Source: the human T2T-CHM13v2.0 reference genome, Homo sapiens
Length of the DNA stretch: 64,000 nucleotides
Assembly: GCF_009914755.1 (NCBI RefSeq)
Contig: NC_060931.1
Direction: 5' to 3' (one strand)
The notes under the pieces were generated by a model that worked only from the letters and a program-made list of their open reading frames with translations, was not told the origin of the DNA and made no database searches. Shown here piece after piece: positions 6,125 through 43,052 of this stretch; positions within the stretch are counted from its first letter, which is position 1, and the number at the start of each line of letters is the position of its first letter. Position numbers and translations under genes: made by a program.

Positions 6125-6335
6125 ATTATGTCCTCCTAGTGAACTGATCAGTGTAATGTTCCTCGGTCTCTGGTAATTTTCTTTGCTCTGATATCTATTT
6201 TATCTGATATTATTATAGTCACTCATGCTTTATTAATGTTTGCATGCATCTTTTTTCAATTGTTTTCACTTTTAATATACTTACGCCACTGAATTTGAAG
6301 TGAATTTCTTATAAACAGCATATATTTGGGTCATT
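6125..6335 (-). mobile_element. Old L1 (L1M) ORF2 endonuclease-region fragment
   Basis: tctattttatctgatatt...tttcttataaacagcatatatttgggtc is typical antisense L1M. Confidence 0.7.
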
Positions 6336-6626
6336 TGTCACAAATAACAAATTTATTCATTTTTTAAGGTTGAATAGTATTGTATATATGCCTCCCATTA
6401 TATTTCTATTGAATGAGGTAGTTCTAGGTAGTGCTACCTTGGCTTTGTCAATAGGAATGCTAGCAGCATGAAACTGACTTAACCTGGGTATGACTTTTGA
6501 TGGCAGTCTATAAAACTTGTATCATTAAACACTGTTGATCGTGGTTAAAGCAAATCATCTTTTTTGTTCTCTAAATCTCTATTGCAGCTCAAGTTATTAT
6601 TGGCTCTCTCTTAGTAGAATAGTAAG

Positions 6627-6990
6627 TGATATGGTTTGGCCATTTGTCCCCACCCAAATCTCATCTTGAATTGTAATCCCCACTTGTCAGGGAGAGACCT
6701 GGTGGGAGGTGATTGGATCGGGGGGCAGTTTTCCCCATGCTGTCCTCGTGATAGCAAGTGAGTTTTCATGAGATTTGATGGTTTATAAGCAACAGTTTCC
6801 CCTGCACTTGTCTCTCTCTCCTGCCACCTTGTGAAGAGGTACCTGCCTCCCCTTCCCCTTCTGCCATGATTGTAAGTTTCCTGAGGCCTCCCCAGCACAT
6901 GCAAAATTGTGAACCAATTAAACCTCTTTTATTTATAATTACCCATTCTTGGTTAGTATCTTTACAGCAGTGTGAAAACTGGCTAATATA
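6627..6990 (+). mobile_element. THE1D-like solo LTR (ERVL-MaLR)
   Basis: Starts tgatatggtttgg...cacccaaatctcatcttgaattgtaatcccc and ends gcagtgtgaaaactggctaatata; 5-bp TSD gtaag/gtaaa. Confidence 0.9.
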
Positions 6991-7164
6991 GTAAAAAGAA
7001 CAATTACAGAAGGGAAATAGTGTGTAAAACTTTGGTAATGGCAAGCAAACCTGAGAATAATTTATCTTTTTATGTAGTTTGTCCTGATCTAGGTTTTAAA
7101 GATAGGATACATTCAAAGATGGGACAAGACCGTGACATCATGCTGAGTTTAGTCCTGAAAGTGG

Positions 7165-7420
7165 TTAGTATTTATTCAATATTTTTGTATTAGAGGTTAC
7201 TGTATGCCAGGCATTGTAAAGGTGCTAAATATTCCCAAAGAAATAAGAAAAAGGAATGGTATCAAACTTCACAAACTTTAAAGACAAATAGAGGGAACAT
7301 ATAAACATATATGTGCAAATATAGGGTGAATGGATTTGTAATAAGCAAATGTACAAATCATACTGGGTAATAAAATCCAGAAACGGACATCTCTGCTTGA
7401 GGTTGGGACACATGGTTGCA
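7165..7420 (-). mobile_element. L2 fragment
   Basis: tttattcaat...actgtatgccaggcattgtaaaggtgct resembles antisense L2 3' end. Confidence 0.55.
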
Positions 7421-12710: not shown

Positions 12711-13670
12711 AGCCATTGTATATGAGAATAGGTGCTCAACATCATTGATCATCAGGGAAATGTAACTTCTAACTAGAATGAGATACCACTGCGTACTTGT
12801 TAATATGGCTATTATTGAAAAAACAAAAGATAATAAATTTTGGCAAGGATGTGGAGAAATTGGAACAATTGCACACCATTGGTAGAATATAAAATAGTAT
12901 GGAACCAGTATGAAGGTTTCACAAAGTTAAAAATAGAACTACCATATGATGTAGCAATCTGACTACTGGGTATATATCCAAAGAAAATGAAAACAGGAAC
13001 ATAAAGAAATATCTGCGCTCCTACGTTCATTGCAGTGCTATTTATAATAGCCAAATATATAATAAAAACAACCCAAATATCCAACAACAGATGAATGGAT
13101 AAATAAAATGTAATATATACATACAACGAAATTTTATTCAATCTTAAAGAGCAAGGAAATCTTATCATTTATGATACCATGGATGAACCTAGAAGACATT
13201 ATGCTGAGTGAAATATGCCAGCCTCAGAAAGAAAAATACTGTGATTCTGCTTATATAAGTTATCTAAAATAGTCAAATGCTTAGAAGCAGAGATTAGAAT
13301 GGTAGTTGCCAGTGGCTGGGGGGAAGGAAAATGGGGCATTGTTTCATAGACATAAGTTTCAGTTAAGCAAGACAAATTCTAGAGATCTACTGTACAATAT
13401 ATTACCTATAGTTAACATCACTACTTATTGTTTACTTGAAAATTTATTAAAAGAGTAGATCTCATGTTAAGCATTCTTAACACACACACACACACACACA
13501 CACACGACAGAAAGAAAGTTTTAGATGTGATGCATATGTTTATTAGTTTGATTGTGGTGATACTATCATGATTGTATGCATGTATCCAAACTCATCAAGT
13601 TAGATACATTAAACATTTACAGTTTTTTGAGGTATAATATTAAGTTATATCTCAATAAAGCTGTTGAAAA
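12711..13670 (+). mobile_element. Sense 3' part of the same L1, with internal (CA)n and AATAAA end
   Basis: tgctcaacatcattgatcatcagggaaatg...aaaatagaactaccatatgat...ctcaataaagctgttgaaaa. Confidence 0.9.
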
Positions 13671-16529: not shown

Positions 16530-17574
16530 GCAGTAATATCTCTGACATGCTCAGATCCTGGGTCCAGGTGGGTTCATTCTTGGGTCTCCAGGTGATTTGC
16601 TCAGGGGCTTTGAGTGGGCAGGTCTTCCAGTTACTGGGCAGCGGGTGGAGTGAGGAATGGCAGTAGCAGTGGTGGGACAACCATCTGACTCCCAAGTGGT
16701 CTGTGCTGGTGTTGGTGACAGCTGTGATGGGCTGGATGGGCCAGTCCCCAGGCACACAGGTGGCATGTGCAGGTGGGTTCCAGCTGTGATGGGAGTAGCA
16801 GGTTGGATAGGCCTGCCCTTAGGCCCCTTGCGAGGGCTGCTTGGGTGCCAATGGTAGTGTATGTGGCTGGGTGATCTCCTGGCCCCCAGACAGCATACTA
16901 AGGTACCAGTGGGCATGGAGCTGAACCAGGCAGACCTGACCTCAGGCTCCTGGGTGGTGCGTGCAGGTGCTGGCTGTTGTAGGTGGAGACTGTTCTTCTG
17001 CTGGAGGCAGTGAGGTCACTGCCTGTGCGTCAGCCCTGACAGCAGCAGCCAACTGTGGTGGTGGCTGCAGGTAGGGGCTGTCAGTGTGGCTCCAGGAAGG
17101 TGAAGATACAGAGGCTGTTAGGCCCCAGCACAAAATGCAGTCTGGTGTGGTCTGGGCTCTCAAAATGGCACCTTGCTGTAGCTGCTTAAGACTTGGGGTG
17201 TGTGGGACTCAGCGTGATCTCCCTCTCTGGAGCAATGCCATCATACAGTCTCCAGGAAGCTTCCTATGTTAGTCTCAGGGCCCACCAGGGTTGAGGGGCT
17301 CTCCTGTCATTTCCAAAGTCCATGGTGGGAATGTGGACCACTGGGGGACTCTCACTTACCCTTTTCCTGCATTGGAGACCCTCTCCAGGCTCCCAGCCCA
17401 TCCTGGTGGAGCAGGACAGAAACTTCTCTCCTCCATCCTTCATTTAGTTGTTTTCTGTCACTTCTCTATTGAATTCCAGTGTTCTCTCATAAATGATCTA
17501 TTTGAAGTGTAATTACCTATTTGCTACTTTGGTTCTTCTGTAACAGATGCCTGTAGTCAGTCATCTTGATGCCC
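16530..17574 (-). mobile_element. L1M 5'UTR fragment (GC-rich) reaching the element 5' terminus
   Basis: GC-rich block ending gtcagtcatcttgatgccc, the reverse complement of the caagatggctgac-type L1 start. Confidence 0.7.
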
Positions 17575-18105: not shown

Positions 18106-18512
18106 GCCTTGCTGTTGTTGCTTAGGACTCTGGTGTGTGTGGGACCCAGCGTGGGCTCCCTTTCTGGAGCAATGCCATTGCAAGGTCTTTAGGCAGCTCT
18201 TTATGTTATTCTCAGGGCCTGTGAAGGCTGAGAGACTCTCCAGTGGCTAAACTTGTCAGAGTCCACAGTGGAATACGAACCACTGTAGGTCTGTCACTTA
18301 CCCTTTCTTTGCAGTGAGAAGCCATCTCCAGGCTTCTTACTTTCCCCTCCTCTCTTACTCTAGGTATTTCCTGACACTTACCTGTTCAATTCCAGTGTTC
18401 TCTCTTAGATGATCTATTTGAGGTGCCATTACCTATTTGCTATTTGGCTTCCTTTTTGTGTGTACCAAAATGGGTACCAGCTGCCTCTCGTCAGCCATCT
18501 TGAAGCCCCTCC
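18106..18512 (-). mobile_element. Second L1M 5'UTR terminal fragment, homologous to 17171-17574
   Basis: Shares tgtgtgggac-cagcgtg, tctggagcaatgcca, ttccagtgttctct and gatctatttga; ends gtcagccatcttgaagcccc. Confidence 0.7.
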
Positions 18513-25445: not shown

Positions 25446-27660
25446 AATAAGAAATTGGAGTCAGAAAGAGAAATTTTATTATTTGCGGTACTGGAAGTAG
25501 AGCCTCACTCAGTGCTGCTGAGTGTTCAGTTGTGACTACATCATTAATATCCAACATGAAATTAAGCATAAAAAACACTGAAATCTCCTGAAGAAAACAT
25601 GTTATTCATTACTAAGAACATAACATTAGTCCTTTTTCTAATTTGAGTTAGAACACAGATTTTACATATGTCCCCCAAATTAAGCTAGAAAATAGCTTAT
25701 GAAACATGACAGGTGTTTTAATAAAAATAATTTTAGATTTATTTTATATAATGAAGGGTTAAATTACTTGAGCTAATACCTAAAATTGTGTTCAAAGACA
25801 GTTTAAAAAATCTATAGATGCTATATCAAGGGAGTATTTTCCTACGGGGAGTTCTTATTTGATGTTCCTTCTTTGTACTTTGACATTGGCATCATACATA
25901 TCAGGACCAGTTACATGGTGTCTGTGAATAAAACTTCAGAGATGAGAAGTACGATGTGGCTCATATGCCTAACACTTCCGTGTGTATTATTGGTGGTGTT
26001 TCACAACATGGATTAAGAAAAAAATTGGCCAGCCATATAATGTTGGTTAATAGTATTAAAGATGGACACACTCCTGGTGAGTTAATGAAAACACAAAGAG
26101 AAAACTTCCACATATGACCTAGCTAGGGATGACTACAGAAATGCCAACTATTTCTGTTGACCTTAAGTTTCAATAACTTAAAGTCTTAATTTATTTCTTT
26201 AAAATTATTTGAGCCACCTGCTATATTCTGGCACTTATACTAGATGGTGGAGATATAAATGTATTTAAGGCAAGGACCCTGCTCATAATGAGCCTAAGAA
26301 TGACAGGTGCATGTGTGTGCAGCCACTTGCACACACAGAAACCCCAAATATTATACACCCTTCAAATCTTAACCCCAAATATAAGTTTTACAGTTAGCTA
26401 ATTTTAAAAATCTGAAATAAATTATTAAAATGACATATGAAAGGAAAAATAAGAAGAGAAAAACTTTTATTTTATATTATGTTCCCTTGGAGAAACAACT
26501 TCAAAATAGTAAAAAATAAGTGGCAGTTGAGATACCTGATTGTAGAGTTGAAATCTATGACCTTGTATTGAGTCCCAAAACTATTTTCATTTGTTTGGGA
26601 ACCAGAGCCAGGCAACAATATTACTAGTTCTTTAGTGCCATTTTGAAATTATACTATTCTGGGAAAGTGTTTTTGAGAAACCATCAGGGTTCTGTACTCT
26701 TCGTTGGCTTTTGCAGCGGACACTGACCCTGGAAGAGCATCATCTCTGTGTTAGGTGATGCTTCAATTCTTAAAGCACAGTTGAAAGCCATTTGCAATAC
26801 CATGAACATAACACATTCCTTTAAGGGGTCAAAACATTTTATTTTTTATATATTAATGGTTTCATGGTTTATCTTTAGTAGTGCTAGAACTGTTGTGATT
26901 ATAATTAATGTCATCACTAATTACGCTATGGGAAAACATCATTTTCTTCTAAATTTTGCTAAACTGAAGAAAATATATATGATTCATGATGAGACAGTTC
27001 AATTAACCTTTAGCACTTACTGTATGTTGGTACAAGCAGTTTATTCATGCCATCTGCTTCACTTGCAGGATTTAAGTTGCTGATGATACTACTGTCAAAT
27101 AGAAGGGATTTGGATAAGCTAGGAAATGCTTGATATATTTAGAATTCTGTAATCATTAAGTGATTATGTGTGTGTGGTTGTATATGTATATAATTTATAA
27201 TATGCAATCATTGTATGAGGGCACAAGTTTCACATAAGAGGACATAACACATTTGAAATACTGCATGGTCAATTCCCTCTTAAAATCTGTTAATTAAATC
27301 TTTTTGTACTCTTGATTCCCTTGATAATTATTCTCAACTATTTTATAAAGTAGTCAACTAGCTGGAGGCTAAGGGCCTGTATTGATGTGACATTAGGGAG
27401 AGGCATGGGAAAAAGAAGCCCATTAAAAGCTAGAATTTCTTTTGATATCTCCTGTCTATATGAAAAAAATAAGGAAATTTTGTATTCTAGTTTATATGTA
27501 GATTCTTCTGGGAAGCTGCTAGCTACCATGGTTTGAGAAGACCACTATATCAAAATCTTCAAAAGTGCTTTTTTATTAAAGACATCCTAAGACTAACGCT
27601 TAGCACAATGTCTGGAATATAATAAATTCTTCTTGGTGGATAACATAGTATTATTTTTGT

Positions 27661-28216
27661 GATAATAAAGATTACATTATTAAAATTAATCTGTGGGTCT
27701 AAAAGAAGCCAAAATAAATCAAAAAGCACTATAAAAAGACATATGAGGAAAATATGTATCTTGTTGGCCCTTCTTCCCATCTTAGAATAGCCCAGCCTCC
27801 TCCAGCATCTCCTCATTCCATCCTCTGCTTTCTGTGCCCCAGCTCAGGCCAGCACCAGCTCCATGGCCCAGAGCTCATGCACTGACAATCAGTTTCAGGT
27901 ATCGCAAGAACTGCTTCCTAGAGTTAAGTTCACAACATTATCTACTAACCTCTTAATAGTGAGCATTTCATGCTTTGGAATAGAATATATTTGGGGATAC
28001 ATAGATTTCCAAGAATTCCTGAGATTGACCATTTCTCTGTGGGTATTGCCAATTTGATTAACCAGAGCTCTGAATATTTTTATCTGATGTTGCAACTGTT
28101 TTAAGAGCTCTTTCTATATATGTAAAACATGATAATTATAAGCCAAAGCCCTTTGTATTAATGAGATAAATATATTCAAGATTGAATTAGGAAATATTGT
28201 ATCTGATTAAACTCTA
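27661..28216 (+). repeat. Inverted repeat arm A (556 bp), partner of 36028-36583
   Basis: Base-by-base reverse-complement match, ungapped, 11 mismatches by hand count (about 98%). Confidence 0.97.
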
Positions 28217-28289
28217 TAGCTGAAAAACAAATGAAAGATTATTATCTTCAGTGTTTTGAAAATTCACATTTTTTTTCATGTTTGATGTC

Positions 28290-28614
28290 TTTTTTTAATT
28301 ATACTTTAAGTGCTGGGATACATGTGCAGAACATGCAGGTTTGTTACATAGGTATACATGTGCCATGGTGGTTTGCTGCACCCATCAACCCATCATCTAC
28401 ATTAGGTATTTCTCCTAATGCTATCCCTCCCCAGCCCTCCACTCCCCAACAGGCCCTGGTGTGTGATGTTCCCCTCCCTGTGTCCATGTGTTCTCATTGT
28501 TCACTCCCACTTATGAGTGAGAACATGCGGTGATTGGTTTTCTGTTCTCGTGTTAGTTTGCTGAGAATGATGGTTTCCAGCTTCATCCATGTCCCTGCAA
28601 AGGACATGAACTCA
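28290..28614 (-). mobile_element. L1PA7-like 3' end
   Basis: attatactttaagtgctgggatacatgtgcagaacatgcagg...gtccctgcaaaggacatgaactca. Confidence 0.93.
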
Positions 28615-30934
28615 GATATTTAAAGTTTCATTTAATCACTCCGTATTGGAAATGTTGATCTGAACATAGCCCCCAAAATGCTTTGTTTGTTCTTTTTCCC
28701 CTAACCCAATATCAATTTTCTTTCACACTGCATCTTTTCTAGGTTGTCTTTTTCAGAGGCTGTTGTAGATCAACCTGTCTGGCAGAATGCATAAGGAGGA
28801 TTTTTTTAGACATGTTGATACTGAGCACACTGTTACATTTTCTTATCCGGCAATCCTGACATCTTTGGAGAAATTTTCTTCCTAGCCAATTTCATACGGT
28901 TAATTTTTTTCATGTAAAGCAATATATATTACCCACTTTCAGTAATACATTTATACACTTAAATAGAAGATACAAGATTTTCCAAACTTTAGAGTAATGT
29001 TCAAATCAGACTCTCAGACGATATAAAGAGTTATCGCTGTAAAAATGTAAAATGATTAAATTGTGACTAAATCTTTAAACAATTAAAAAGTATGCCCGTG
29101 GAGAGTTAATATATTTGTAATATCTATTTCAATAACTTAAAACTTAGGAGATAATTAGACAACAGAATCTATTAAGTCACAATAATTATTTTTTGCCTGG
29201 AGATACAGATTACATTAATAGATTTCATCAGCTGTAAATGTCATAATGCCTGGAGGTAGTTCCTGCTTCTTATAAAAGGAGTTAAACATAACATTCATAT
29301 AAACTCATATTAATCCTCCAGTTTTATTGTGTCCTTTAGAATAATTTAACTAAGTGACTGGAAGATTTTTATTTTGCATTAGAGAGCACAGGATTTCTTG
29401 TTGATTTTAAGCATTTATTTAATAATAATATTAAATTTGTATTAAATATAAATTAATACTAAAGGTGCATTGTCTGAACCTCAGAGGATTTTATGAGTCT
29501 AAAATAAATATATGTAGCTCATGGGTTTGTCATGACCCAGAGGATACGTTTCCTGCAACCTATAGCATGAATTTTGCAAATGTTCCAAAGCTCATGGTGC
29601 CTGCGGCAGTAAATGTTCTAAGCCATCAGCTGGTAAGTGACTTTGGAAATTAGTTGGAGGTTAATTCTCTGCCTCATTGGCCCCCTGAAGTGGACAAACT
29701 GTAATTGATTTTGATAGCGTTCACAAAGAACTTTTTTCTATTGAAAATGGAGGCATACTCCCAGAGACATCCTCTGGATACAGGAACAATTAAATAGGTA
29801 TCAATGAGATGTCATTAAAAGTTTATGTTTCTGTAATTAATAAACACTCCTTACTTTTGGCAATTTTGTTGCTTTTAAAAACTACAAATTTTAAATTGTC
29901 AAAATGGTTTATTTTTCCTGTGGAGTGTTTTCATTTAACTCGAGTATCTTGCACAAGCACTAATATTCTATTTTTCATATATGCTGCTATAGAAAGAAGC
30001 AGCTATGGGCATGCATATTCATTTGTGTCTATAACCTCACAAAGGAAAGAGCAAAGAGTTACTCTCTGGGACAGTGGTGTCCTCAAGTGAGCATCTTGAG
30101 CAAAAGGAGTAAAACTGATCAGGAACACGTTCACTGTCATGGATTTTGTTCAATAGTTACATAGAAAAATTAAGTCCATATCTTTTTCATTTAAATGAAT
30201 TCCTCTAACCACTCAATAACAAATCAATTATAGCTGTATCTTTTAACTGTGTATTTTGCAAAATCTAGACCTTTTTAAATCTAAGCTGGATAAACAGACT
30301 TGGTAGCTCTTTAAGATACACCAAAATAGGTGTCCTAATTAGTTTGATGAGATGATTGTAGAATCTCTAATTGCATCAGTTGTAGCCTTACTATATTGAG
30401 TTTCTTGAAAGAATTAAGCCTAGTATATTCTTCCAACACAGTATAGGCACTGTGATTTCAGAAAGTCTAAGACATAGTTACAAACTAAACACTATACTAA
30501 GGTATTTTTATATGTCATTTAAAAATTATATTATTCTTTATAAGTAAATTTTTCCAGGCCTCTACATAGTAAGTGCTGGAGTTAAGATTTTAAGACAGTG
30601 TGTATGCCAACTTTAGATAATTCATAAATTAATAACAGATTTTTAGAGGCAGGTAGGACATCCTTCAAATAGTAATAGTAAACACCAGCTAAGATGTCCA
30701 TTATCTATTTTGATGTCTTCTAGAGGCAGTCAGCAAAAATAAACCCAATTCTTTTCTTTATTATGCTGAAAACATTAGAAAAAGAGAAGTCAAAACACTA
30801 AAATGGAGATTACGTATTCTACAAATAAAAATGAAATACTATCTTTGTCCACGCTTAAATTTACAGTTCATTTAAAAATACTACAATTTGGGGTATTCAG
30901 ATTAACTTTTGTAGCTTGATGATTGAATTGTTTT

Positions 30935-30965
30935 ATATATACACACACATAGAGAGAGAGAGAGA
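30935..30965. repeat. Compound (TA)(CA)(GA) microsatellite
   Basis: Read directly. Confidence 0.8.
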
Positions 30966-30984
30966 GGCTTTAATATTTCTTAAA

Positions 30985-31188
30985 TTTTATTTTTAAATTT
31001 TAATCTATTTCTGTATTATTTTTCATTTGTTGTGAGACTGGGTTATGAGACCTGGCTAATTTTTGTATTTTTGGTAGAGATATGGTTTCACCATGTTGCC
31101 AAGAGTCTCCAACTCTTGGCCTCAAGTGATCACCCACCTTGGCCTCCCAAAGTGCTGGGATTACAAGTGTCAGCCACCGTGACTGGCC
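30985..31188 (-). mobile_element. Alu left arm and linker with the right arm reduced to TCTCATAACCCAGTCTC, plus a decayed A-tail
   Basis: Reverse complement reads ggccagtcacggtggctgacacttgtaatccc...aaaattagccaggtctcataacccagtctcacaacaaatgaaaaataat. Confidence 0.88.
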
Positions 31189-31419
31189 CATATAGGCTTT
31201 TATATTTGTATTAAAAGAGCAATTTGTCAGGAATGAAGATCATGTCATGCAAAGCATCTAAACAATAAGGAAAAATACTTATTTGAATATGGGGCCCACT
31301 CTAAGCCCTCAAGTTTCCCAGCCAGGGAGCCATATATCCTCTTTTCCTTTCAATGTCTTTCATTTGATAGAGGATTGTTCATGTGATCTTGAAGGATCCC
31401 TGGAGCCAAACAAACGTGT

Positions 31420-31572
31420 GAGTAATTCAAGACTTGTTATTTCTCAGACCATCAATTTCTTTATTGTTAACAATGGAGGAAAAATACTTACTTTTTACCA
31501 TTAGTGTGGAGTAAAGTGAGATAATGGCCATAATGCACTTAGAGAAATGCCAAAAACTCAATAAATAGAGCT
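31420..31572 (+). mobile_element. MIR fragment
   Basis: tcaatttctttattgttaacaatggagg...gtaaagtgagataatgg...ctcaataaatag. Confidence 0.55.
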
Positions 31573-31937
31573 CGAATTAGTCAGCCCCAGCTGCCATAAC
31601 ATAATAGCACAGATTGTGTGGCATGAACAAAAGAAATTTTTATTCTTGCAGTCTGGATGCTGGAAGTCTGAGGTCAAGGTATTAACTGATTCTGTTCCTG
31701 GAAAGGGCTCTCTCTTCCTGGTTTGCAGATGGCTGCCTTCTCGCTATGTTCCCAAGTGGTGGAGAGAGAAGGAGAAATCTCTTTCTCTTCATCTTCCACC
31801 AATCCAATTGGATTAGGACGTAACCTTATGACTCTAATTACCTCCTAAAAGCCCTATCTCCTTATACAGTCAAATTATGGGTTAGAGCTTCAACATATGA
31901 ATTGGGATGTGGAGGCATACAATTCGGTTCATGGAGT
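31573..31937 (-). mobile_element. MLT1A-like LTR
   Basis: gctgccataacataatagcacagattgtgtggc...ctggaagtctgaggtcaagg...gttagagcttcaacatatgaatt. Confidence 0.85.
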
Positions 31938-32599
31938 AGTTACTTAAAAACTAGTGTTTTAAAAATATTTTTAAAATATTCTTCATTAGTGGAACCTCAA
32001 TTTTTCTCTCAGTTAATGGAGATTGTGTGATATATTTTAGGTCATCTTCCTGAAAGTTTCACCAGCCAAATTCGCCTGATTAAATTCCATGTTCTCTGCT
32101 TCTGTGAGTTTATTTGTGAAGAAGTAAAGAGAACATTTTCTTCTTTTATGTTCTCAACTCTCTGAACTGTGCCTGACATAGGCAAACCCAGGGTCCTTAG
32201 AGGCTGGATAGAACCACTAATAGGACTATTTGGCATTATGGCTGGGGTGTAATTGCTTTTCAGTTTTACAGCTTTACTAAGAGACTGTTATTGTTCTTTC
32301 AGAGTTACTTCAGAGCCAGCTGTTTAAACAATAAAATTTGTTCAAAATAGGGCTTTACTGACAATTTTCCTCTTTATAATTGGTGCTACTGCCTCCATAA
32401 ACTCAGTTTCTTTTTTAGATGTCTGATGGCTGTCAGAGTTCTTTGTAGTTCTTTTAGAGATGCTACAGCAAAGTATTTAGTATAGTTCTTCCTTCCTGGA
32501 CTATTTCATAATAACTCAAAAAATGAGGAATGGGTTTTCACAGATGAAATATAGCAAACTCCTCTAAAGTGATAAACTAAATGTAAATTTTACATATAA

Positions 32600-32930
32600 C
32601 ACACTAATTAAAATAGTGAAATGTCTTTGTGGATTTAATAGCTATTTAGCTTCAGCAGGAAACACGATAAATGAAATGGAAGATAAGTTCAAAGAGAAAG
32701 AAAAATTAAGAAAATGTGTGTGAGAGAGAGAGAGAAAGAGAGAGAGACACAGAGAGAGAGAGATAAAATGGGGTAATAAAGAGAGAAAAGAAGTGAAAGA
32801 TAATGTAAAAAAATTCATGTAGACAATAACTCAGAATTATCCAAATGGAAGAAAGATATTAATGCTCAGATTTCAGAAGCTCTACAAATCCATGCACAAA
32901 AATATAATGAGAACTACACATAGACACTAC
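32600..32930 (+). mobile_element. Old L1 ORF1-region fragment containing a (GA)n tract (about 32720-32763)
   Basis: ggatttaatagc...aatgaaatggaagataag...cagatttcagaagctctacaaatcc. Confidence 0.5.
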
Positions 32931-34234
32931 CTTATTACCTGTGTTTTCTTACTGATTTATAAACATTCATTATACATTCTCATCCTGTGTATTTAGATCA
33001 CAGTATTGTTTACATGAAAGTGTTCGCTTTGTGCATATTTATTTAGCTGCACAGTATGTACACCTTCCCACAAACAATAGAAAAGTACCAAGAAACTATA
33101 TAAATAATAAGCCAGAGAAAAATGCTATTTAATAAAAGAAAAAAAGAAAAAAACAAGGTCTAGAACAGAATGTTTATCTCCTTCAAAATATTTGTAGATA
33201 AATAGAATAACTGAAAGGTTATATCAGTGATCTTCACTTCCCAATTAAACACCTCTTAAATGGAGATGCTGCTACTGCCTTCATTACATATTGACATATT
33301 TTTATTTCACTAATGGTTTTGCAGGTAACTATCTCTTTTCTATAATTTCTAGAGTCAATAAAATGGGCAGCCTGTGTTAGTTTACTGTTACATCAGGAGT
33401 TAAACTAGTTTTAATTTTGATTTGAATATTTTATTCACATCAAATAATTCAGTACATGTATTTTCTATTTACTAATTTTCTCTTTGTACTTAGATATATG
33501 CTTTAAATTAATTTTGCCTTTACTTCATATTTTTTGACCCACACTAATGTATTCAATGCATTTAGAAAATCAAAATATATTGAATATTTAATAGCTGCTA
33601 ATTGTCAATACTTTGAATTTGTTACCTACCTACATAAGTAAATATGTAAATTATTTAAAATCTCACGTGGAAATCATACATAAAATCAATTTTTAATTAA
33701 ACATTAATTTTAAAGATATCTGTTTAATGTATTGTTCATTATAAAAATGTCAAGTAACATCAATTTGAAAACAGTATTAAATTTTATAGAAAATTAACTT
33801 GTTAGCTTTTGGTAGCTTATTTTGGATTCTAAAATATTAAATATTTAACAAAAGAAAAATGAAAGCACTGTTTAAGGACTTGGGTCATGTTAGTAAACAT
33901 ATGTTAATAAACAGATTGTATTAATCTAAGAGGATTTTCAAGTTTTCAAAGAATATGTTGTAAGGAGGCTGCAGTCTTATTTTGAACTTACTTTTTATTT
34001 CCTATTAAAAAGACAATATCAAATGAAGAGATAATTAGTATAAAAAATCTGATTTTGATTAAGTGTAGTGCTTAACAATTAGGCAGCCAAAATTACGAAT
34101 AAATGAATGAATGAATGAGAGAAAATGCTGAATATGTGCATTGATGTGAATTAAATACTATAACAATATATAAATAAATATAATTACCAGATTCATGAAA
34201 CAACTTTCATCCAAGTAGCATAAAAGCCTAATAT

Positions 34235-35324
34235 CGATAGTGGCAAGAGTCAGACAAATTCCTAAGGCAGACAGGGGTGGGTCCTTCAAGCCAAAGATAT
34301 CCTGAAGACTGAAAACCAGGCTGCCAGTTCCTGGTAAAGTCCATGACCAAAGTGAGAACTTCCTCTATGCCTTTTTCAGCAATGAAACAGCGCTTTGTCC
34401 AGGCCTGCCAATGACTAATCAGCACACACTCCCCCATTCCGAGCCTATAAAAAACCTGAAGTCAGCCATATGTTGGACTACCACTCCAAGGCCCCATCTC
34501 ACACAGAGGCCCACCTGCTCTCAGGTCCCCTCTCCGTAGAGAGCTTTCCTTCACTCACTCAATAAAATCCTTCCCTGCCTTGCTCACTCTCTGGTGTCTG
34601 CTTAACCTCATTCTTCTTGGTTGTGGGACAAGAACCTGGAGCCCAATGAACAGCGGGGGTGAAAAGATCTGTAACGTGTTCCTGGCTGGCTTGCCAGGCT
34701 GCAGGTGGTGTCATGTTCCCATTCACTGGACTATGGGAGTGAAGAGTGGTGACCCTTCTGGGGGCCCAGATCTTGGGATTCCTGAGCCAGAACTGTAACA
34801 CTGTAACCCTCCTGCCCTTTGCTGGTGCCAGGCAGCTGCCCTATGTAATGGGAAGTGGCAGCAGCAGGGCCAAGCCAGCCCAGGAGCTGCAGGCTAGAGC
34901 TGGACGGCAGAACTAAATGAGCTGTAACACGAAGAAACTGAAACATGGCCCCCCATTTGCCATGCTGTGGGCGGCAAGAAGGAGAGAGAGCTGTAACAGT
35001 CCTTGGAGGCTCAGACTTTGGGGCTCCCTGGGTGAGAGCCTAACACCCCTTGGAGCTCTGTGGTTGCTGGCATTTCTGAGTTTTTGGGCGCCATCCCGTT
35101 CCCCTCATCTAGATGTTAATGCCTAAGGTGGAGGATGGTCGTGGCGTGCCTGGACCAGCTGCAGGCTGAGTGCAGACCCACAGTGGGCGGGAATCCAGGC
35201 TGGTAGTGCGAGCTGAGTGCAGCCAGCTGGGCAGAGTGGGTGGAGGAAAACTGTCAGTGAGCCCGAAGCTGAGCAAGACACCAACAGCCATGGAAATTTC
35301 TGGCACCAATAGAATCCTGTGTCA
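34235..35324 (+). mobile_element. ERV1 solo LTR, LTR27/LTR28/LTR1-like (about 1.1 kb)
   Basis: Starts gatagtggcaagagtcagacaaattcctaaggcagacagggg; CCAAT at 34408, TATAAA at 34446, AATAAA at 34561; repeated ctgtaac motifs; ends atcctgtgtca. Confidence 0.8.
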
Positions 35325-35649
35325 ATAACAATATTCTTATATGGTATTTGCTGGTTATGTAAATGAAATAAATTGAGGTCAATCTCATTATATTTATTTT
35401 ACAGACATGAAAACAAGGCAGACACACAATGGGTAACTCATTCTCAGGATGGTAGGTGGATAAAATCCTGTGGTGTGGGACATTATTTCCAACTGGATAT
35501 GTTTGCTTATGGTCTTTTAAACAAATCACATTCGATTTGTGAAGATACTTTAGTGAAACATTTCCTAATGAAAATTAGTTTGTGTTAGAGATGTGACCTG
35601 TGGGTCACCGTGCCTAGGTATAATTAGATTGTATCAAAAGAATCAAATC

Positions 35650-35930
35650 AGCTGGGCACAGTGGCTCACACTTGTAAACCCAGTACTTTGGGAGGGTGAG
35701 GCAGGAGGATTATTTGAGCCCAAGAGCTCCAGACCAGCCTGGGCAACACAGAGAGGCTCTGTATCTACAAAAAATTAAAACGTTAACTGGGTGTGGTGGC
35801 ATAGTCCCAGCTACTCAGGAGACTGAGGTGGGAGAATCTATTGAGCCCAGGAGGTCGAGGCTGAAGAGATCTGTAATTGTGACAATCTAGGTGATAGAGT
35901 ATGACCCTGTCTCAAAAGAAAAACAAAGAA
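35650..35930 (+). mobile_element. AluJ
   Basis: ggaggattatttgagcccaagag...gagcccaggaggtcgaggctg; TSD aaagaatcaaatc / aaagaagcaaatc. Confidence 0.93.
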
Positions 35931-36027
35931 AGAAGCAAATCAAATGTCACTAGATCTTCTCCCTATCAGCCTAAGATTAAAGAGCATCAGAATCTTGAAA
36001 AATCCTCACTTACTCCTAAATGTTTCT

Positions 36028-36583
36028 TAGAGTTTAATCAGATACAATATTTCCTAATTCAATCTTGAATATATTTATCTCATTAATACAAAGGGCTTTG
36101 GCTTATAATTATCATGTTTTACATATATAGAAAGAGCTCTTAAAACAGTTGCAACATCAGATAAAAATATTTAGAGCTCTGGTTAATCAAATTGGCAATA
36201 CCCATAGAGAAATGGTCAATCTCATGAATTCTTAGAAATCTAGGTATGCCCAAATATGTTCTATTCCAAAGCATGAAATGCTCACTATTAAGAAGTTAGT
36301 AGATAATGTTGTGAACTTAACTCTAGGAAGCAGTTCTTGCGATACCTGAAACTGATTGTCAGTGCATGAGCTCTGGGCCATGGAGCTGGTGCTGGCCTGA
36401 GCTGGGGCACAGAAAGCAGAGGATGGAATGAGGAGATGCTGGAGGAGGCTGGGCTATTCTAAGATGGGAAGAAGGGCCAACAAGATACATATTTTCCTCA
36501 TATGTCTTTTTATAGTGCTTTTTTATTTATTTTGGCTTCTTTTAGACTCACAGATTAATTTTAAGAATGTAATCTTTATTATC
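36028..36583 (-). repeat. Inverted copy A' of 27661-28216
   Basis: Reverse-complement identity about 98%; the same spurious ORF (MRRCWRRLGYSK...) appears on opposite strands. Confidence 0.97.
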
Positions 36584-37202
36584 CTCAATTATTTGATGGA
36601 CTTCAGTTAGAAAGTAACTTTTATTATTCATTAATCAATAATATTAATAAAAACTACTGTGAATCGCTAACGTTTTAAAGTGATTTTCAGTTTATCACTA
36701 AACAAATATTTAAAGATTAAAAACTCCTCTGTGTGTGTGTGTGTGTATGTGTCTATGTGTGTCTACATAGGCAGGATGTCTTGTTTATCCAATTTTCATA
36801 TAATACTTAATTCATATATCACTCCATAAAATCCCCAAAAGTTGATGGTAAACAGGTTGAAAAATACAAACCTCTCTCTTTGAAATTCAAATCTTCCTAA
36901 TGTTGATCTATTTTTAGACCCTCATTATGTCTTGTCAGAATTGTTAAAATAACCTGCTAAATGTTCTTTCTCCCCCATGCTGTGACTGATTCTAATATAG
37001 TTTAATCTGACAGTTGTTACTAAAATGCAAATATTTATTTGAAAGCCTCTCTTCAATTCCAACAAAGAAGTGCCATCAAGTATCTTAGAAAAGTATGTAA
37101 AGTGATTTTTATTCTGGTGCTATTTTACCCTACTTTTCCCATATGAACACTATACTGTACTCATATAATTTGACAGTTTTTCTATGTTTTTACTACTTCC
37201 CT
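36581..37202 (-). repeat. Inverted copy B' of 39751-40372 (622 bp), fused directly to A'
   Basis: Equal-length reverse-complement match, about 12 differences, includes the (CA)/(TG) tract. Confidence 0.97.
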
Positions 37203-37834
37203 GTGTTCTTTTGCTCAAGTTTTCCTTATGAACCTCCCTGGCCTAAGAAGCTACTTTTGATGGTGCATTGTCATAGTCATATCCACTGCCTCTGACCACT
37301 GCTTCCACCTTATGCTCAATGTTCCTATTAAAATAGGGCATGTGACCCCTGAGAATCTCAATCTCAAAGCAGTACTGTGCTCCATGTGATAAGAATACTC
37401 TTTGTTTTTTTCTATTCCTCTCAAACTTTGTAACATTGGCCCAAAGAAGCAGTGCTTGCATTTTATAAGATCCTCAACGAAAACTGCTGCTCTATGTTCT
37501 GTTTGCAGTTTCTGTGTCCATAGGTTCTCTCCTGAGGACACAAGTTCATAGAGCCCAGCAAGAGCTCAGCACTTGGGACAAACCCTCACATACTTCTCCA
37601 GCTCTTCATGGCCCTGAATCCCTTCCCTAAAATCTCTTCCAGAAGAAAGCTCTCAGTCAAATATCTCCAAGATAGTTCTTTTCCTTATGCCATCCATCAC
37701 ACCAGCCTGACATATCAATCAGAGAATAAGCTCAAATGGACTGTCATTGACACTGCAACCTCTATTGAAAGGCAAATCTGTGCAAAGGCATTATGAAAGA
37801 GCTTAAGAAAAGAAGCATTCCTGTGAGTCCTTTT

Positions 37835-38940
37835 ATGTATTGTGATTAGACCCTAGAATGTTTTCCTGAAATTAAGCATTTAACTGAAAGTGAAGAAGCC
37901 TCTGGGCCTCATCTCTATTTCCATAATAGTCTGACTTACTTAATCTACTCTTTTATTGAGTTTAAATAAGAAGCTGTTTTTATTTCCCCTGGATACAATA
38001 AACTCTAAAAATAAGCACAGAATCAAACTTATTTTAGACTTTTTTTAAGCTTTCCTTTATTTTGGACATGTTATTTGAATAAATAGTTTGTATTTAAGAG
38101 AGAAAGAACAGAATACTCCTTAATGATTCTTTCATTACATTTTTCTTCAATAATTCAAGGCATATCCACAAATTCAGTGGTTGTGCAAAAACTTTTTTAT
38201 ACATGAATTTGTACCTTATTTAGAATTAAAATATTTGTGTGTCCTAATTAATCAAGCTAAAGTATTAATTGGGTAAATATATACTTGACAATTAACAGGG
38301 AAAGTAATACTTTACAGATTTAGCCACAGGAAACAAGAGTGGCCATTTTTTTTTCAATTTGATTAAAGAATATTTTTATCCAGAATACATGTGGAATTCT
38401 GGTAGAAAATTTCAGACAGCTGATGAATTCTTACCATGTATCTTTATACAGTGTGATTAGAATGTATAATCATTCCCTGAAATTATGCTTTTTTTTAGCT
38501 GAAAGAGAAGCCTTTGGATCTCCTCTGTGTTTCCATAATAGGCTAATTTAATCTACTCTTTTTACTCTGTTCCTGCCATGAAAAGACAATTTTGTTTAGC
38601 CAAGCAGTAATAAACCCTCTAAAAATGGTTCAGAAACAAGAGGTTTTTTTTTCTTTCCTAACTTTTCTTTATTTTTGATATGCTATTTTGAACCAGTAGT
38701 CTATATTTCAAAGAGAAAACTGTTATTCTCACTTGTGTTTTCATGAAATTTTCCCTAATAATTCAAGTCATGCCCAGCATGAGTTAGTTGAATTTGAAAA
38801 ATATTAATCTCACAGTTTTGTATCATATTCAGCACTCAATCTTTTTATTTTAGTAAAGTTCTTGAACAAAGGTATAAGTTAATATACAGATAAAAAATAA
38901 TAGGATGATGTCTTTATAGCTTTGTGTACAGCAGGAAATA
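37835..38940 (+). repeat. Ancient diverged tandem duplication, period about 610 bp
   Basis: Five collinear exact anchors of 10-15 nt at offsets 608-612. Confidence 0.8.
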
Positions 38941-39750
38941 TTACTTAAAAAGCATTTTTAGTGACCTACTTTATGTATGGAATGCTGCTAGAAACTACAG
39001 AAATGGAAAATTATTAGGACTTGTCCTGTGGATATTTAGAACCCAGTAAAAAGAAAGGGTGAATTTAACAAGTTCTCTGTCACGAAGAAAAGTACTAAGT
39101 AGCAAAAGTGAAAAAAATGTTTAAAAAGTGATTTAAAAGCTCTGAGGAAATACAGAGCTCATCTACATAGGGGATTCAGGGACTGTCTCTGACAAAAGGT
39201 GGGGCAGAGGAATTGGAGATAGAAAGATTGTTGAGAAAAGCAGAAATGTTAGTGTGGGGCATTTTAGGTCAAAATAACATAACATGATAACATAAAAGCA
39301 AAAAAAAAAAAAAAAAAGAAAAAGGAAAAGCAAATAAACAGAAACTTCAAGTTTAATTTTGAGTGTCAGAAATCTGCCAGACATCTAGGTAAAAATGATC
39401 AGTAAACAGATGGCTCTATGAGTCTGACATGAGAATAAAAAGTTTTGGTTTGGAATTCTCTCTTTCTTCCTCTCTCTCTTTCTCTCTCCCCTCCACCCTT
39501 CCCTATATTTCTAGCATTGCTAGCTTCTAGGGGTGTAAAGGTAAATAATGCAGAAACAGTTTTCAGGGAGTTCACACACTAGTTGGAAGTCGTATAATCA
39601 AACAATTTTCACAGAATAGAATGTCACAGCAAGATATTAGCAAGGTGCTATCAAGGGAGGATCTGATATCTGCATAGGAAAGTCAGAGAAAATTTGACAG
39701 ATGGTGATGTGTCAGTGGTGTATAGAGGGTAAAACATGGGACAATTTCCA

Positions 39751-40372
39751 AGGGAAGTAGTAAAAACATAGAAAAACTATCAAATTATAAGAGTACAATA
39801 TAGTGTTCATATGGGAAAAGTAAGGTAAAATAGCACCAGAATAAAAATCACTTTACATACTTTTCTAAGATACTTGATGGCACTTCTTTGTTGGAATTGA
39901 AGAGAGGATTTCAAATAAATATTTGCATTTTAGTAACAACTGTCAGATTAAACTATATTAGAATCAGTCACAGCATGGGGGAGAAAGAACATTTAGCAGG
40001 TTATTTTAACAATTCTGACAAGACATAATGAGGGTCTAAAAATAGATCAACATTAGGAAGATTTGAATTTCAAAGAGAGAGGTTTGTATTTTTCAACCTG
40101 TTTACCATCAACTTTTGGGGATTTTATGGAGTGATATATGAATTAAGCATTACATGAAAATTGGATAAACAAGACATCCTGCCTATGTAGACACACACAC
40201 AGACACACACACACACACACACAGAGGAGTTTTTAATCTTTAAATATTTGTTTAGTGATAAACTGAAAATCACTTTAAAACGTTAGCGATTCACAGTAGT
40301 TTTTATTAATATTATTGATTAATGAATAATAAAAGCTACTTTCTAACTGAAGTCCATCAAATAATTGAGGAT
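39751..40372 (+). repeat. Inverted repeat arm B (622 bp), partner of 36581-37202
   Basis: Direct reverse-complement comparison. Confidence 0.97.
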
Positions 40373-40402
40373 TATATTCATGCTTAAAAATATCACGAAT
40401 TT

Positions 40403-40610
<208 letters not shown>

Positions 40611-40627
40611 TTATGAATTTATATTGA

Positions 40628-40951
<324 letters not shown>

Positions 40952-42124
40952 CAGTTTATTTTGAGGTATGTAAATAGTTAGATAATGGTGTCATTCATGG
41001 GTGTAAGAAATACAGAAAAAGGAGAAGTCTAATGTGTTCAGTTATGAATGTGTTGATCCTGAAGAACTTACAGAATTGTCCTAAAAGGCAGTTGTACATA
41101 CAAGGAGATAACTGCCTCCTAGAAATGTCTGGCTTTAATATATAAACTTGGAATCTATCATTCTATCTAACTAACGACCTAGCTAATGATTGCTGAGATG
41201 ATAGGGGGATGTGTGGAAAGAGAGGAAGCTGAGCACAGAATTCCTTAAAACAGAAGTCATGAAGAGAAAGCCATCACTATTACTAACTAAAAGTTGTAGA
41301 CAGGAAGGAGTAGTAGAAGACCAAGAAAGACATCCCAACATCTAAGGGAAAAAGGAATATCCTAGTTCCTCAAAATATTTTTCTGAATTCTTGGATGACC
41401 ATAATATATTTTCTTTTGTTCTTACATATTTTGAATCTTTACTACAATTGCTACTTAAATATTACCTACATATAATTATATAAATATCTTCCTTTAAATG
41501 AAGAATAATTATTTAAGCAATCATTTGTCTTCCATTTTAGTAACATTAAAATAATACAACAGAAGGTAATGTGACAGTTTATGAATACTATATCTGGTGT
41601 GTGAATATCTGATCCACTTTGGTAATAAACTGAAAGGTAGCGTAATTTGTTGTAATCCCACCCTATTATTTTCAGAATGCCAGGCAAAAGTTCTCAGTGT
41701 GAGTAATGCCTCAGAAAAATATAAAGTTTTAATATCTTTTAATATCTAATAGTTTTCAGAAATTGCTCATGGAAAGGAATATTGCTTAATAAGGCTAACT
41801 TATCTTCCATTTATGAAAAATCCAGTTTTCCATGAATTCACCCACATTTGTACTGTACAATTAAAGATTGAGAGGGAATTGATGAGCCAGAGCTAAGCAT
41901 CTGTAGCACACATTCAACATTTTGACATGTGTAATTTTAAGACTAGTCAAATTGATATAATTCTAAAATATCACATGTTGTGAGGCTTTGTATTTTTCAC
42001 TTTGCTTGGGTGTAAGGTAAAAATTCCAGGAAATAAAATATTATTACTATTGAATTTATATATAGGAATCTCCTGTTCTTAAATCTATAACCAACTATAA
42101 TTTGCTTTGGCTTAAGAAACAGCA

Positions 42125-42447: not shown

Positions 42448-43052
42448 GCCAAGATATGAAAAGAAACCAAAGTGTCAACAGACCAATGGTGAACACATCT
42501 ATTGTGTGTGCGTTTGTGTATGTATACATCAGTAAATATACATATATATATATATATGCACACATATATGCACACTGGAACATTATTCAGTTTAAAGAAG
42601 TGATCCTGTCATTTGCATTGACATGAATGAGTCAGAAAGACATTATGCTAAATGAAATAAGCCAGACTCAGAAAGAAAAATACTGCATGATCTCAGGTAT
42701 ATGTGGAATTTTAAAATTAAAAAGTTGCATACATAAAAATAGAGATTAGAGTGGTGATTACTGGGGCAGGGTATTGGGGGGCGCATGGGGACATATGGGT
42801 CAGAATGAATAAACTAGAGATCTAATATACAGCATGAGGACTATATTTAATAATTGTGTATTATATACTGAAAATGTATTAAGAGAGTAGACTTTAGGTG
42901 CTCTTACCACACTCGCACATACATATATGCATACAAATCAAACGTGTGAGATGACAGATATGTTCATTTGTTTGACTGTAGTAATCAGTCCGCTATGCAT
43001 ATGTATGTCAAAACACTATATAGGTAACCTTATATGTATGCAATAAAGAAAA
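42447..43052 (+). mobile_element. Sense 3' part of the same L1MA
   Basis: agccaagatatg...cattatgctaaatgaaataagccag...tttgactgtagtaatc...caataaag; TSD core CAGCAAATAA at 42120 and 43055. Confidence 0.9.

What the first reader, a model, noticed from the sequence alone, without database searches (positions are those of the whole stretch)
27661..40372. Two adjacent inverted-repeat pairs: a candidate double inversion switch
Seen: the order is A(27661-28216) - Y(7,811 bp) - A' - B' - Z(2,548 bp) - B(39751-40372). Both pairs are about 98% identical, with perfect tracts of 229 bp (36295-36523) and 239 bp (36806-37044). Known: non-allelic homologous recombination between nearby inverted repeats produces recurrent, polymorphic inversions. 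Short reads and SNP tagging often miss these because the breakpoints lie inside the repeats. Inference: Y and Z could flip independently, giving up to four structural haplotypes. L2-like continuity across 39750 suggests Z is in the ancestral orientation here; Y's orientation cannot be called from this window.
Basis: partly seen in the sequence, partly recalled or inferred. Interest (0 to 1): 0.75.

Follow-up and report, generated by a model that had tools for sequence, protein, structure and literature searches.

The report
Old copy-paste scar, two inverted repeats
A 1.2-kb piece in a gene-free stretch of human chromosome 7 is a reversed copy of two nearby unique segments joined end to end, likely left by one DNA-copying error in an ape ancestor; it could let two neighbouring segments flip, but the inversion lists searched do not show them doing so.

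Summary
The repeats are real. A (27661-28216) pairs with A' (36028-36583; 11 mismatches in 556) and B' (36577-37202) with B (39751-40376; 13 in 626). Each arm has just two copies in the genome. The simplest origin is a single three-jump template switch (FoSTeS/MMBIR type) that pasted it between Y and Z. Arm divergence of 1.7% (1.0-2.6%) points to great-ape times. A 1,972-row human-macaque inversion table lists 1-kb and 3.6-kb inversions on either side but none here, so Y and Z are probably both in ancestral orientation. Independent flipping into four haplotypes is geometrically possible, but I found no entry in three human inversion tables. The perfect tracts (229 and 239 bp) are below the 300-500 bp usually needed in meiosis, and only 6 of 319 longer inverted pairs chosen on geometry alone proved polymorphic. 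The claimed L2 continuity at 39750 was not confirmed. Verdict: an unannotated, probably fixed rearrangement scar of a known kind with no gene nearby; low interest.

The parts
27661..28216 (+). A: unique-sequence donor segment (inferred original copy), left arm of pair 1
   Evidence: 2 copies genome-wide
28217..36027 (.). Y: 7,811-bp single-copy interval between A and A'; inferred to be in ancestral orientation
   Evidence: no human-macaque inversion row here
34235..35330 (+). GC-rich insert in Y flanked by 4-bp ATAT duplications, looks like an old solitary LTR (family label recalled); it holds the RefSeq enhancer 34565-35065
   Evidence: hub annotation for the enhancer
36028..36583 (-). A': reversed copy of A, first half of the inferred templated insertion; perfect tract 36295-36523 (229 bp)
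36577..36583 (-). 7-bp overlap of A' and B': B's end (GATTATA) and A's start (GATAATA) share GAT exactly and 6 of 7 bases; a B-end to A-start junction with microhomology
36577..37202 (-). B': reversed copy of B, second half of the inferred insertion; perfect tract 36806-37044 (239 bp); TG microsatellite near 36729-36762
37203..39750 (.). Z: 2,548-bp single-copy interval between B' and B; inferred ancestral orientation; holds weak LINE-2 remnants and an old 68% direct repeat
39751..40376 (+). B: unique-sequence donor segment (inferred original copy), right arm of pair 2
40403..40973 (.). Two oppositely oriented Alu copies starting 27 bp beyond B's end (arms 40447-40608 / 40662-40823, 75% complementary, 53 nt apart); a possible fork-stalling site, speculative
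   Evidence: masked stretches in the hub annotation; Alu label recalled

Best explanation
A'B' (36028-37202) is a single reversed copy of B's end joined to A's start, likely pasted between Y and Z by one replication template-switching accident in a great-ape ancestor, and Y and Z are probably not common inversion polymorphisms today. Shown: the arms, their uniqueness, the order and the microhomology at the A'/B' joint. Inferred path on an ancestral L-A-Y-Z-B-R chromosome: the strand stalled at the end of Y; jumped 7.8 kb back and copied A backwards (556 nt); jumped ~11.5 kb to the far end of B on GAT/GATAATA microhomology and copied B backwards (626 nt); then resumed at the start of Z. That makes three new junctions, two inverted and one tandem-duplication type. 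The by-product is two inverted-repeat pairs that could in principle flip Y and Z independently by ectopic crossover, but the arms are short and interrupted, so flips are expected to be rare; occasional gene conversion between arms is possible.
For: A' and B' overlap by 7 bp, so they form one piece whose reverse complement is a B-end/A-start junction. Both pairs have similar divergence, 11/556 and 8/585 without overlap and microsatellite, pooled 19/1141 = 1.7%, CI 1.0-2.6%, as expected of one event. The arms are unique sequence, not transposons. In Ding 2024 Table S7 (PMC11092980; 1,972 human-macaque net inversions from 51 bp, hg38), consecutive rows chr7_inv81 (118,598,813-118,599,866) and chr7_inv82 (118,752,206) bracket the locus (~118.620-118.633 Mb, offset), with no row inside. 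No polymorphism. Only 6 of 319 inverted SD pairs were polymorphic in 54 people (PMC13629690). Meiotic minimal segment 300-500 bp (PMC2583991). Repeat length is the main driver of recurrence (bioRxiv 2021.12.20.472354). Low-copy local gains with mixed inverted and non-inverted junctions are the 'local n-jump' pattern (PMC7025897); 2-5 nt microhomology is the FoSTeS mark.
Against: No outgroup sequence was seen. The pre-insertion allele is inferred from absence in a curated table whose authors removed ambiguous cases, and breakpoints with duplications could count as ambiguous. The hg38 offset rests on a recalled position ~1 Mb away. Repeat-continuity tests at the Z junctions were inconclusive both ways. 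Microhomology at the Y/A' and B'/Z junctions cannot be read without the ancestor. Polymorphic inversions with arms this size exist: HsInv0040 755 bp and HsInv0061 654 bp. Mismatches are mildly clustered (joint p = 0.017; 8 of 11 A mismatches in 123 bp, p = 0.011, window chosen after looking; B alone p = 0.09), which fits conversion and so an older date and ongoing pairing of the arms. The 1,019-genome inversion list and the ape T2T tables could not be seen.
Confidence: 0.6

Rival explanations
1. Two-step origin through a circle or tandem duplication: the 11.5-kb A-Y-Z-B segment was first joined end to start (excised circle or tandem duplication on a sister), and a break at Y/Z later captured a 1.18-kb junction-spanning piece in reverse. 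Same product, different route.
For: The internal joint is exactly the end-to-start junction that a circle makes; such junctions with microhomology are described for human duplications (PMC7450558 passages).
Against: Only 1,175 of ~11,540 bp are duplicated and the acceptor lies inside the donor; the described cases duplicate the whole donor as two swapped blocks. It needs two rare events at one place.
Confidence: 0.15
2. Y, Z or both are really inverted relative to the ancestor. The arms are breakpoint duplications made during the inversion (for example ancestor L-A-Y'-Z'-B-R with the whole opened circle put back reversed), or a later crossover fixed a flip.
For: Inverted duplications at breakpoints are a known by-product of non-homologous inversions (recalled). 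The 25 bases beyond B's left end resemble each other at the two ends of Z slightly more than random (p = 0.03, 1 of 4 junction pairs tested). By eye the start of Z looked like an old LTR whose end might run on into B' (recalled look).
Against: No human-macaque inversion row at the locus although a 1,053-bp inversion ~20 kb away is listed. The pairwise LTR test gave scores near or below the shuffle maximum in most of 7 copies and no clean crossing of 37202.
Confidence: 0.12
3. One reading: ectopic crossover between A/A' and B'/B flips Y and Z recurrently, and two to four structural haplotypes segregate in humans at appreciable frequency.
For: The geometry allows it. Arms exceed the 200-bp floor seen at sequence-resolved inversions. 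Polymorphic inversions with 654-755 bp arms exist. Close repeats can recombine on short matches. Mild mismatch clustering. Arms under 1 kb were outside the SD-pair screen of the 612-candidate study, so the locus was never genotyped by that method.
Against: Absent, whose sources include long-read assemblies that span 0.6-kb arms easily. Base rate 1.9% for longer pairs. The two short-arm examples are single-origin, not recurrent (PMC6748972). No exact match to the degenerate PRDM9 13-mer (motif recalled) in either arm; one 1-mismatch site in A/A' among 41 in the window.
Confidence: 0.08
4. Assembly artefact or chance similarity.
For: None found.
Against: Arms differ at 24 positions spread along them, unlike a misjoin; 98% over 0.55-0.63 kb cannot be chance.
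Confidence: 0.01

Closest known systems
FoSTeS/MMBIR complex rearrangements; 'local n-jumps' and templated insertions (PMC2583991; PMC7025897)
   Same: Local low-copy gains, a mix of inverted and non-inverted junctions, short microhomology at the readable junction, explainable as one copy-and-paste path of three switches.
   Different: Those were described as de novo patient or tumour events; this one sits in the reference, is ~1.7% diverged and is probably fixed. The ancestral allele was not seen.
NAHR-mediated polymorphic inversions with short arms, HsInv0040 (755-bp arms, 3.6 kb) and HsInv0061 (654-bp arms, 1.7 kb) (PMC13629690 Table S1; PMC6748972)
   Same: Arm length and spacer size in the same range; arms >90% identical.
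   Different: Both orientations are documented there, not here. Their arms are typed as transposable elements, here unique DNA. Here two pairs share one central insert.
Duplications through circular DNA intermediates, A-B/C-D block swap (PMC7450558)
   Same: The duplicate contains the donor's two ends joined with microhomology.
   Different: Only the junction-spanning tenth of the donor is copied, it is reversed, and it landed inside the donor.
Segmental duplications (>=1 kb, >=90%)
   Same: Low-copy, high-identity duplicated unique DNA.
   Different: Each alignment is under 1 kb (556 and 626 bp), so it falls below the SD definition and outside SD-based inversion screens.

Membership tests
NAHR-mediated polymorphic inversion | Flanking inverted repeats >=200 bp, >90% identical | tested here: met
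   556 and 626 bp at 98%; thresholds
NAHR-mediated polymorphic inversion | Uninterrupted identity at or above the meiotic minimal segment (300-500 bp) | tested here: not met
   229 and 239 bp against PMC2583991, which also notes exceptions for close repeats
NAHR-mediated polymorphic inversion | Listed with both orientations in human inversion catalogues | tested here: not met
   No row; none seen (file cut, one place unseen); the 1,019-genome list was not seen
NAHR-mediated polymorphic inversion | Both orientations seen directly in haplotype assemblies or reads; recurrence shown by shared SNPs | not testable with these tools
   Only one human genome is held
FoSTeS/MMBIR local templated insertion | Copied segments come from nearby unique DNA, low copy gain | tested here: met
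   2 copies each, within 12.7 kb
FoSTeS/MMBIR local templated insertion | Mix of inverted and non-inverted junctions on one chromosome | tested here: met
   Order A-Y-A'-B'-Z-B; A'/B' is an end-to-start joint; pattern as
FoSTeS/MMBIR local templated insertion | 2-5 nt microhomology at new junctions | tested here: inconclusive
   Present at 1 of 3 inferred junctions (3 exact, 6 of 7); the other 2 need the ancestral allele
FoSTeS/MMBIR local templated insertion | Ancestral allele lacks the insert with flanks collinear | tested here: inconclusive
   Collinearity with macaque inferred from table absence; presence or absence of A'B' in outgroups not seen
Circular-intermediate duplication | Donor ends joined inside the duplicate | tested here: met
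   A'/B' joint
Circular-intermediate duplication | Whole donor duplicated as two swapped blocks that meet in the donor | tested here: not met
   Y and Z are single copy; only 1,175 bp duplicated; definition
Segmental duplication | Alignment >=1 kb at >=90% | tested here: not met
   556 and 626 bp; definition

The most novel reading that the evidence does not exclude
One template-switching accident built a two-segment, four-state inversion switch out of unique DNA, and it is alive: the arms are older than they look (islands of 5-7% divergence between converted tracts of 229, 144, 129 and 239 bp), still pair ectopically, and Y (with its enhancer) and Z have flipped independently in some human or ape haplotypes, unseen because the arms fall under the 1-kb duplication threshold.
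Probability: 0.12. Interest if true: 0.5.

Novelty: new member of a known kind. Interest (0 to 1): 0.24.

Why it matters
As most likely read, it matters little: a neat fossil of a three-jump template switch in a gene desert (no gene in the window; nearest annotated lncRNA ends 23 kb before it), of a kind well described in patients and tumours. It shows how one replication error can create NAHR substrates from unique DNA below the segmental-duplication threshold. If Y or Z were found flipped, the locus would add one or two small inversions to the catalogues and give a clean two-locus test of how flip rate depends on arm length and spacer at a fixed genomic position. A functional effect is unlikely: the only annotated element is an enhancer inside Y that would move a few kb, and enhancers are largely orientation-independent (established knowledge).

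Tried and rejected
L2 continuity across 39750: LINE-2 profiles from 20, 39 and then an extended set of copies. The best match in Z was 39560-39695 at E 0.77. Adding B to Z's right end raised the score by 0 bits (17.5 vs 17.5; 150 random continuations mean 18.8). The profile is weak on this AT-drifted DNA, so this is 'not confirmed', not 'refuted'; the profile grew to 135 sequences and may hold other repeats. LTR continuity across 37202: pairwise alignment to 7 copies found by motif; 3 of 7 clearly above their shuffle maximum, 1 equal, 3 below, with noisy alignments; left open. BLAST of 8 junction-spanning pieces against ~290 kb of window and genome stretches found no repeat convincingly crossing an arm boundary; one weak hit (E 7e-4, 63% identity) overlaps A's left end by 11 bases. 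Genome searches with junction flanks returned only the locus. Near-matches of junction 16-mers with <=2 mismatches were many and scattered, as expected in AT-rich DNA; no templated mini-insertion or target-site duplication stood out. No Rfam match in 26000-42000; four short tandem rows only. Literature: no paper with '7q31.31' + 'inversion' + 'ANKRD7'; some searches were topic searches, not locus searches. Supplements not seen: ape T2T tables (PMC12058530, too large), the 1,019-genome inversion list (PMC12350158), Porubsky 2022 tables (covered only indirectly through the merge in PMC13629690). Earlier scan findings were not available.
Full report
1. Observation. Self-BLAST of the window and the repeat finder give two long inverted pairs. 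In ungapped register A 27661-28216 and A' 36028-36583 differ at 11 of 556 positions; B' 36577-37202 and B 39751-40376 differ at 13 of 626, four of them in a TG/CA microsatellite and one in the terminal overlap. The arms are unique DNA: A has two matches in the genome, both here; B has two apart from microsatellite hits (that search skips very common words and scored 40 of 253 candidates). The other self-matches in the window are Alu-sized pairs at 87% or less. None of 20 comparison stretches of 10 kb had an inverted pair of >=200 bp at >=92%.

2. Anatomy. A' and B' do not merely sit side by side: they overlap by 7 bp (36577-36583). Read on the other strand, A'B' is B running to its right end and continuing into the left end of A. 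B ends in GATTATA and A begins with GATAATA, so the joint has 3 exact and 6 of 7 shared bases. This is the junction a tandem duplication or circle of the ~11.5-kb A-Y-Z-B segment would make. The two pairs are therefore one 1,175-bp insert seen against its two donors. Leaving out the overlap and the microsatellite, divergence is 11/556 and 8/585, pooled 19/1141 = 1.7% (95% interval 1.0-2.6%). Against recalled genome-wide figures (human-chimpanzee ~1.2%, gorilla ~1.6%, orangutan ~3%) this suggests an origin around the African great-ape ancestor, earlier if conversion has erased differences. Mismatches are somewhat clustered: joint p = 0.017 on squared gap lengths, A alone 0.019, B alone 0.094; 8 of A's 11 lie in 123 bp, p = 0.011 with the window chosen after looking. 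That is a hint of conversion or clustered mutation, not a demonstration.

3. Ancestral order. With single copies of A and B, the ancestor was L-A-(Y or Y')-(Z or Z')-B-R (three new junctions), or had B-A adjacent (four new junctions). I tried to decide from old repeats crossing junctions and could not. Extending Z's right end with B, with either end of Y or with 150 random pieces gave no discrimination (17.5, 19.4, 17.5 bits; null mean 18.8). The start of Z looked by eye like an old LTR that might continue into B', which would mean Z is flipped; pairwise alignment with 7 copies was too noisy to say. That question is open. The deciding evidence is indirect. A motif search placed a CFTR landmark at CHM13 118,874,928; with its recalled hg38 position the offset is ~1,315,341, putting the locus at ~hg38 chr7:118,620,300-118,633,000. 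Ding et al. 2024 (PMC11092980; passages and supplement searches seen) list 1,972 curated human-macaque net inversions from 51 bp up. Their consecutive rows chr7_inv81 (118,598,813-118,599,866; 1,053 bp) and chr7_inv82 (118,752,206-118,755,835) bracket the locus, and no coordinate containing 11861, 11862 or 11863 occurs in the file. So the alignment resolves 1-kb inversions 20 kb away and calls none for Y or Z. Caveats: the authors removed ambiguous cases, and the table is on hg38; hg38 and CHM13 should agree here because neither the hg38-based nor the CHM13-based human lists, which share samples, have an entry (inference).

4. Mechanism. On L-A-Y-Z-B-R the present order follows from three template switches: end of Y to the right end of A (copy backwards 556 nt), left end of A to the right end of B (microhomology shown; copy backwards 626 nt), left end of B to the start of Z. 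Local low-copy gains with mixed inverted and non-inverted junctions are the 'local n-jump' pattern attributed to copy-and-paste replication (PMC7025897, passages), and 2-5 nt microhomology is the FoSTeS signature (PMC2583991, passages). An oppositely oriented Alu pair begins 27 bp beyond B's end and could have stalled a fork; this is speculation. A circle or tandem-duplication intermediate gives the same product and cannot be excluded, but unlike the described circular duplications (PMC7450558, passages) only a tenth of the donor was copied and it landed inside the donor.

5. Is it a switch? Each pair stays inverted after either flip, so four haplotypes are possible. Evidence that they exist is lacking. 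Porubsky 2023 (PMC10150506; supplement xlsx searched; 44 samples on CHM13): no hit for six locus prefixes, and the sorted chr7 rows of Table S1 jump from 98.7 to 144.9 Mb (30 of 61 'chr7' places seen). Moreira-Pinhal 2026 (PMC13629690; main text parts 1-3 of 8, supplement part 1 of 43 and searches): 612 repeat-flanked candidates merged from five long-read, Strand-seq and optical studies plus older predictions; no breakpoint beginning 1184-1187. This means the locus was not a candidate, not that it was genotyped as fixed; their SD-pair class started at 1 kb. Logsdon 2025 (PMC12350169; passages; supplement searched but cut when stored): 0 hits for five prefixes; '119944' has 4 places, of which I saw only a chromosome-12 row. 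Not seen: the 1,019-genome list (PMC12350158, passages only) and the ape T2T tables (PMC12058530). Priors point the same way: 6 of 319 inverted SD pairs of 1-50 kb chosen on geometry were polymorphic in 54 people; repeat length is the main driver of recurrence and 23 of 32 recurrent inversions had arms >=10 kb (bioRxiv 2021.12.20.472354, passages); the meiotic minimal segment is put at 300-500 bp. Against this, polymorphic inversions with 654-755 bp arms exist, though both are single-origin (PMC6748972, passages), close repeats can recombine on shorter matches, and candidates with 520-830 bp arms appear in the same table as non-polymorphic. PMC3961182 (passages) gave background on recurrence only. 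I put a common human polymorphism at under 10% and any flip in some human or ape haplotype at 10-20%.

6. Function. No gene lies in the window and there is no Rfam match in 26000-42000. Y holds a GC-rich insert (34235-35330) with 4-bp flanking duplications that looks like a solitary LTR (label recalled) and contains the RefSeq enhancer; a flip would move it a few kb.

7. Novelty. I found no mention of the locus (and the table searches above; most subscription papers are not searchable). It is a new member of a known kind: a probably fixed, sub-kilobase templated inverted insertion. Shown: arms, uniqueness, order, central microhomology, divergence. Inferred: ancestral order, three-switch path, age, lack of common polymorphism. 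Interest 0.24.

Noticed in passing
window ~6150-7210: By my approximate offset this is the 1,053-bp human-macaque inversion chr7_inv81 of Ding 2024 Table S7, assigned there to the Old World monkey lineage.
   Followed up: no
window 37832-38163 and 38443-38771: Old direct repeat inside Z, period ~612 bp, 68% identical; looks like an ancient tandem duplication.
   Followed up: no
window 34235-35330: GC-rich insert with 4-bp ATAT flanks, solitary-LTR-like (label recalled), not among the longest masked stretches the hub lists, and containing the RefSeq enhancer 34565-35065.
   Followed up: partly
window 40403-40973: Closely spaced oppositely oriented Alu pair (75% complementary, 53 nt apart), 27 bp from the end of B.
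   Followed up: partly
window 27950-28072 versus 36172-36294: Cluster of 8 of the 11 A/A' differences in 123 bp (6.5%), between perfect tracts of 229 and 144 bp; conversion of the flanks or a mutation cluster.
   Followed up: partly
window 17171-17532 / 18107-18447 and 13193-13561 / 42637-42985: Older direct similarities (71% and 66%) in the self-BLAST, probably degraded interspersed repeats.
   Followed up: no
window 28256-28617: Short L1-like 3' fragment on the minus strand (label recalled) starting ~40 bp beyond A's right end; not included in A'.
   Followed up: no
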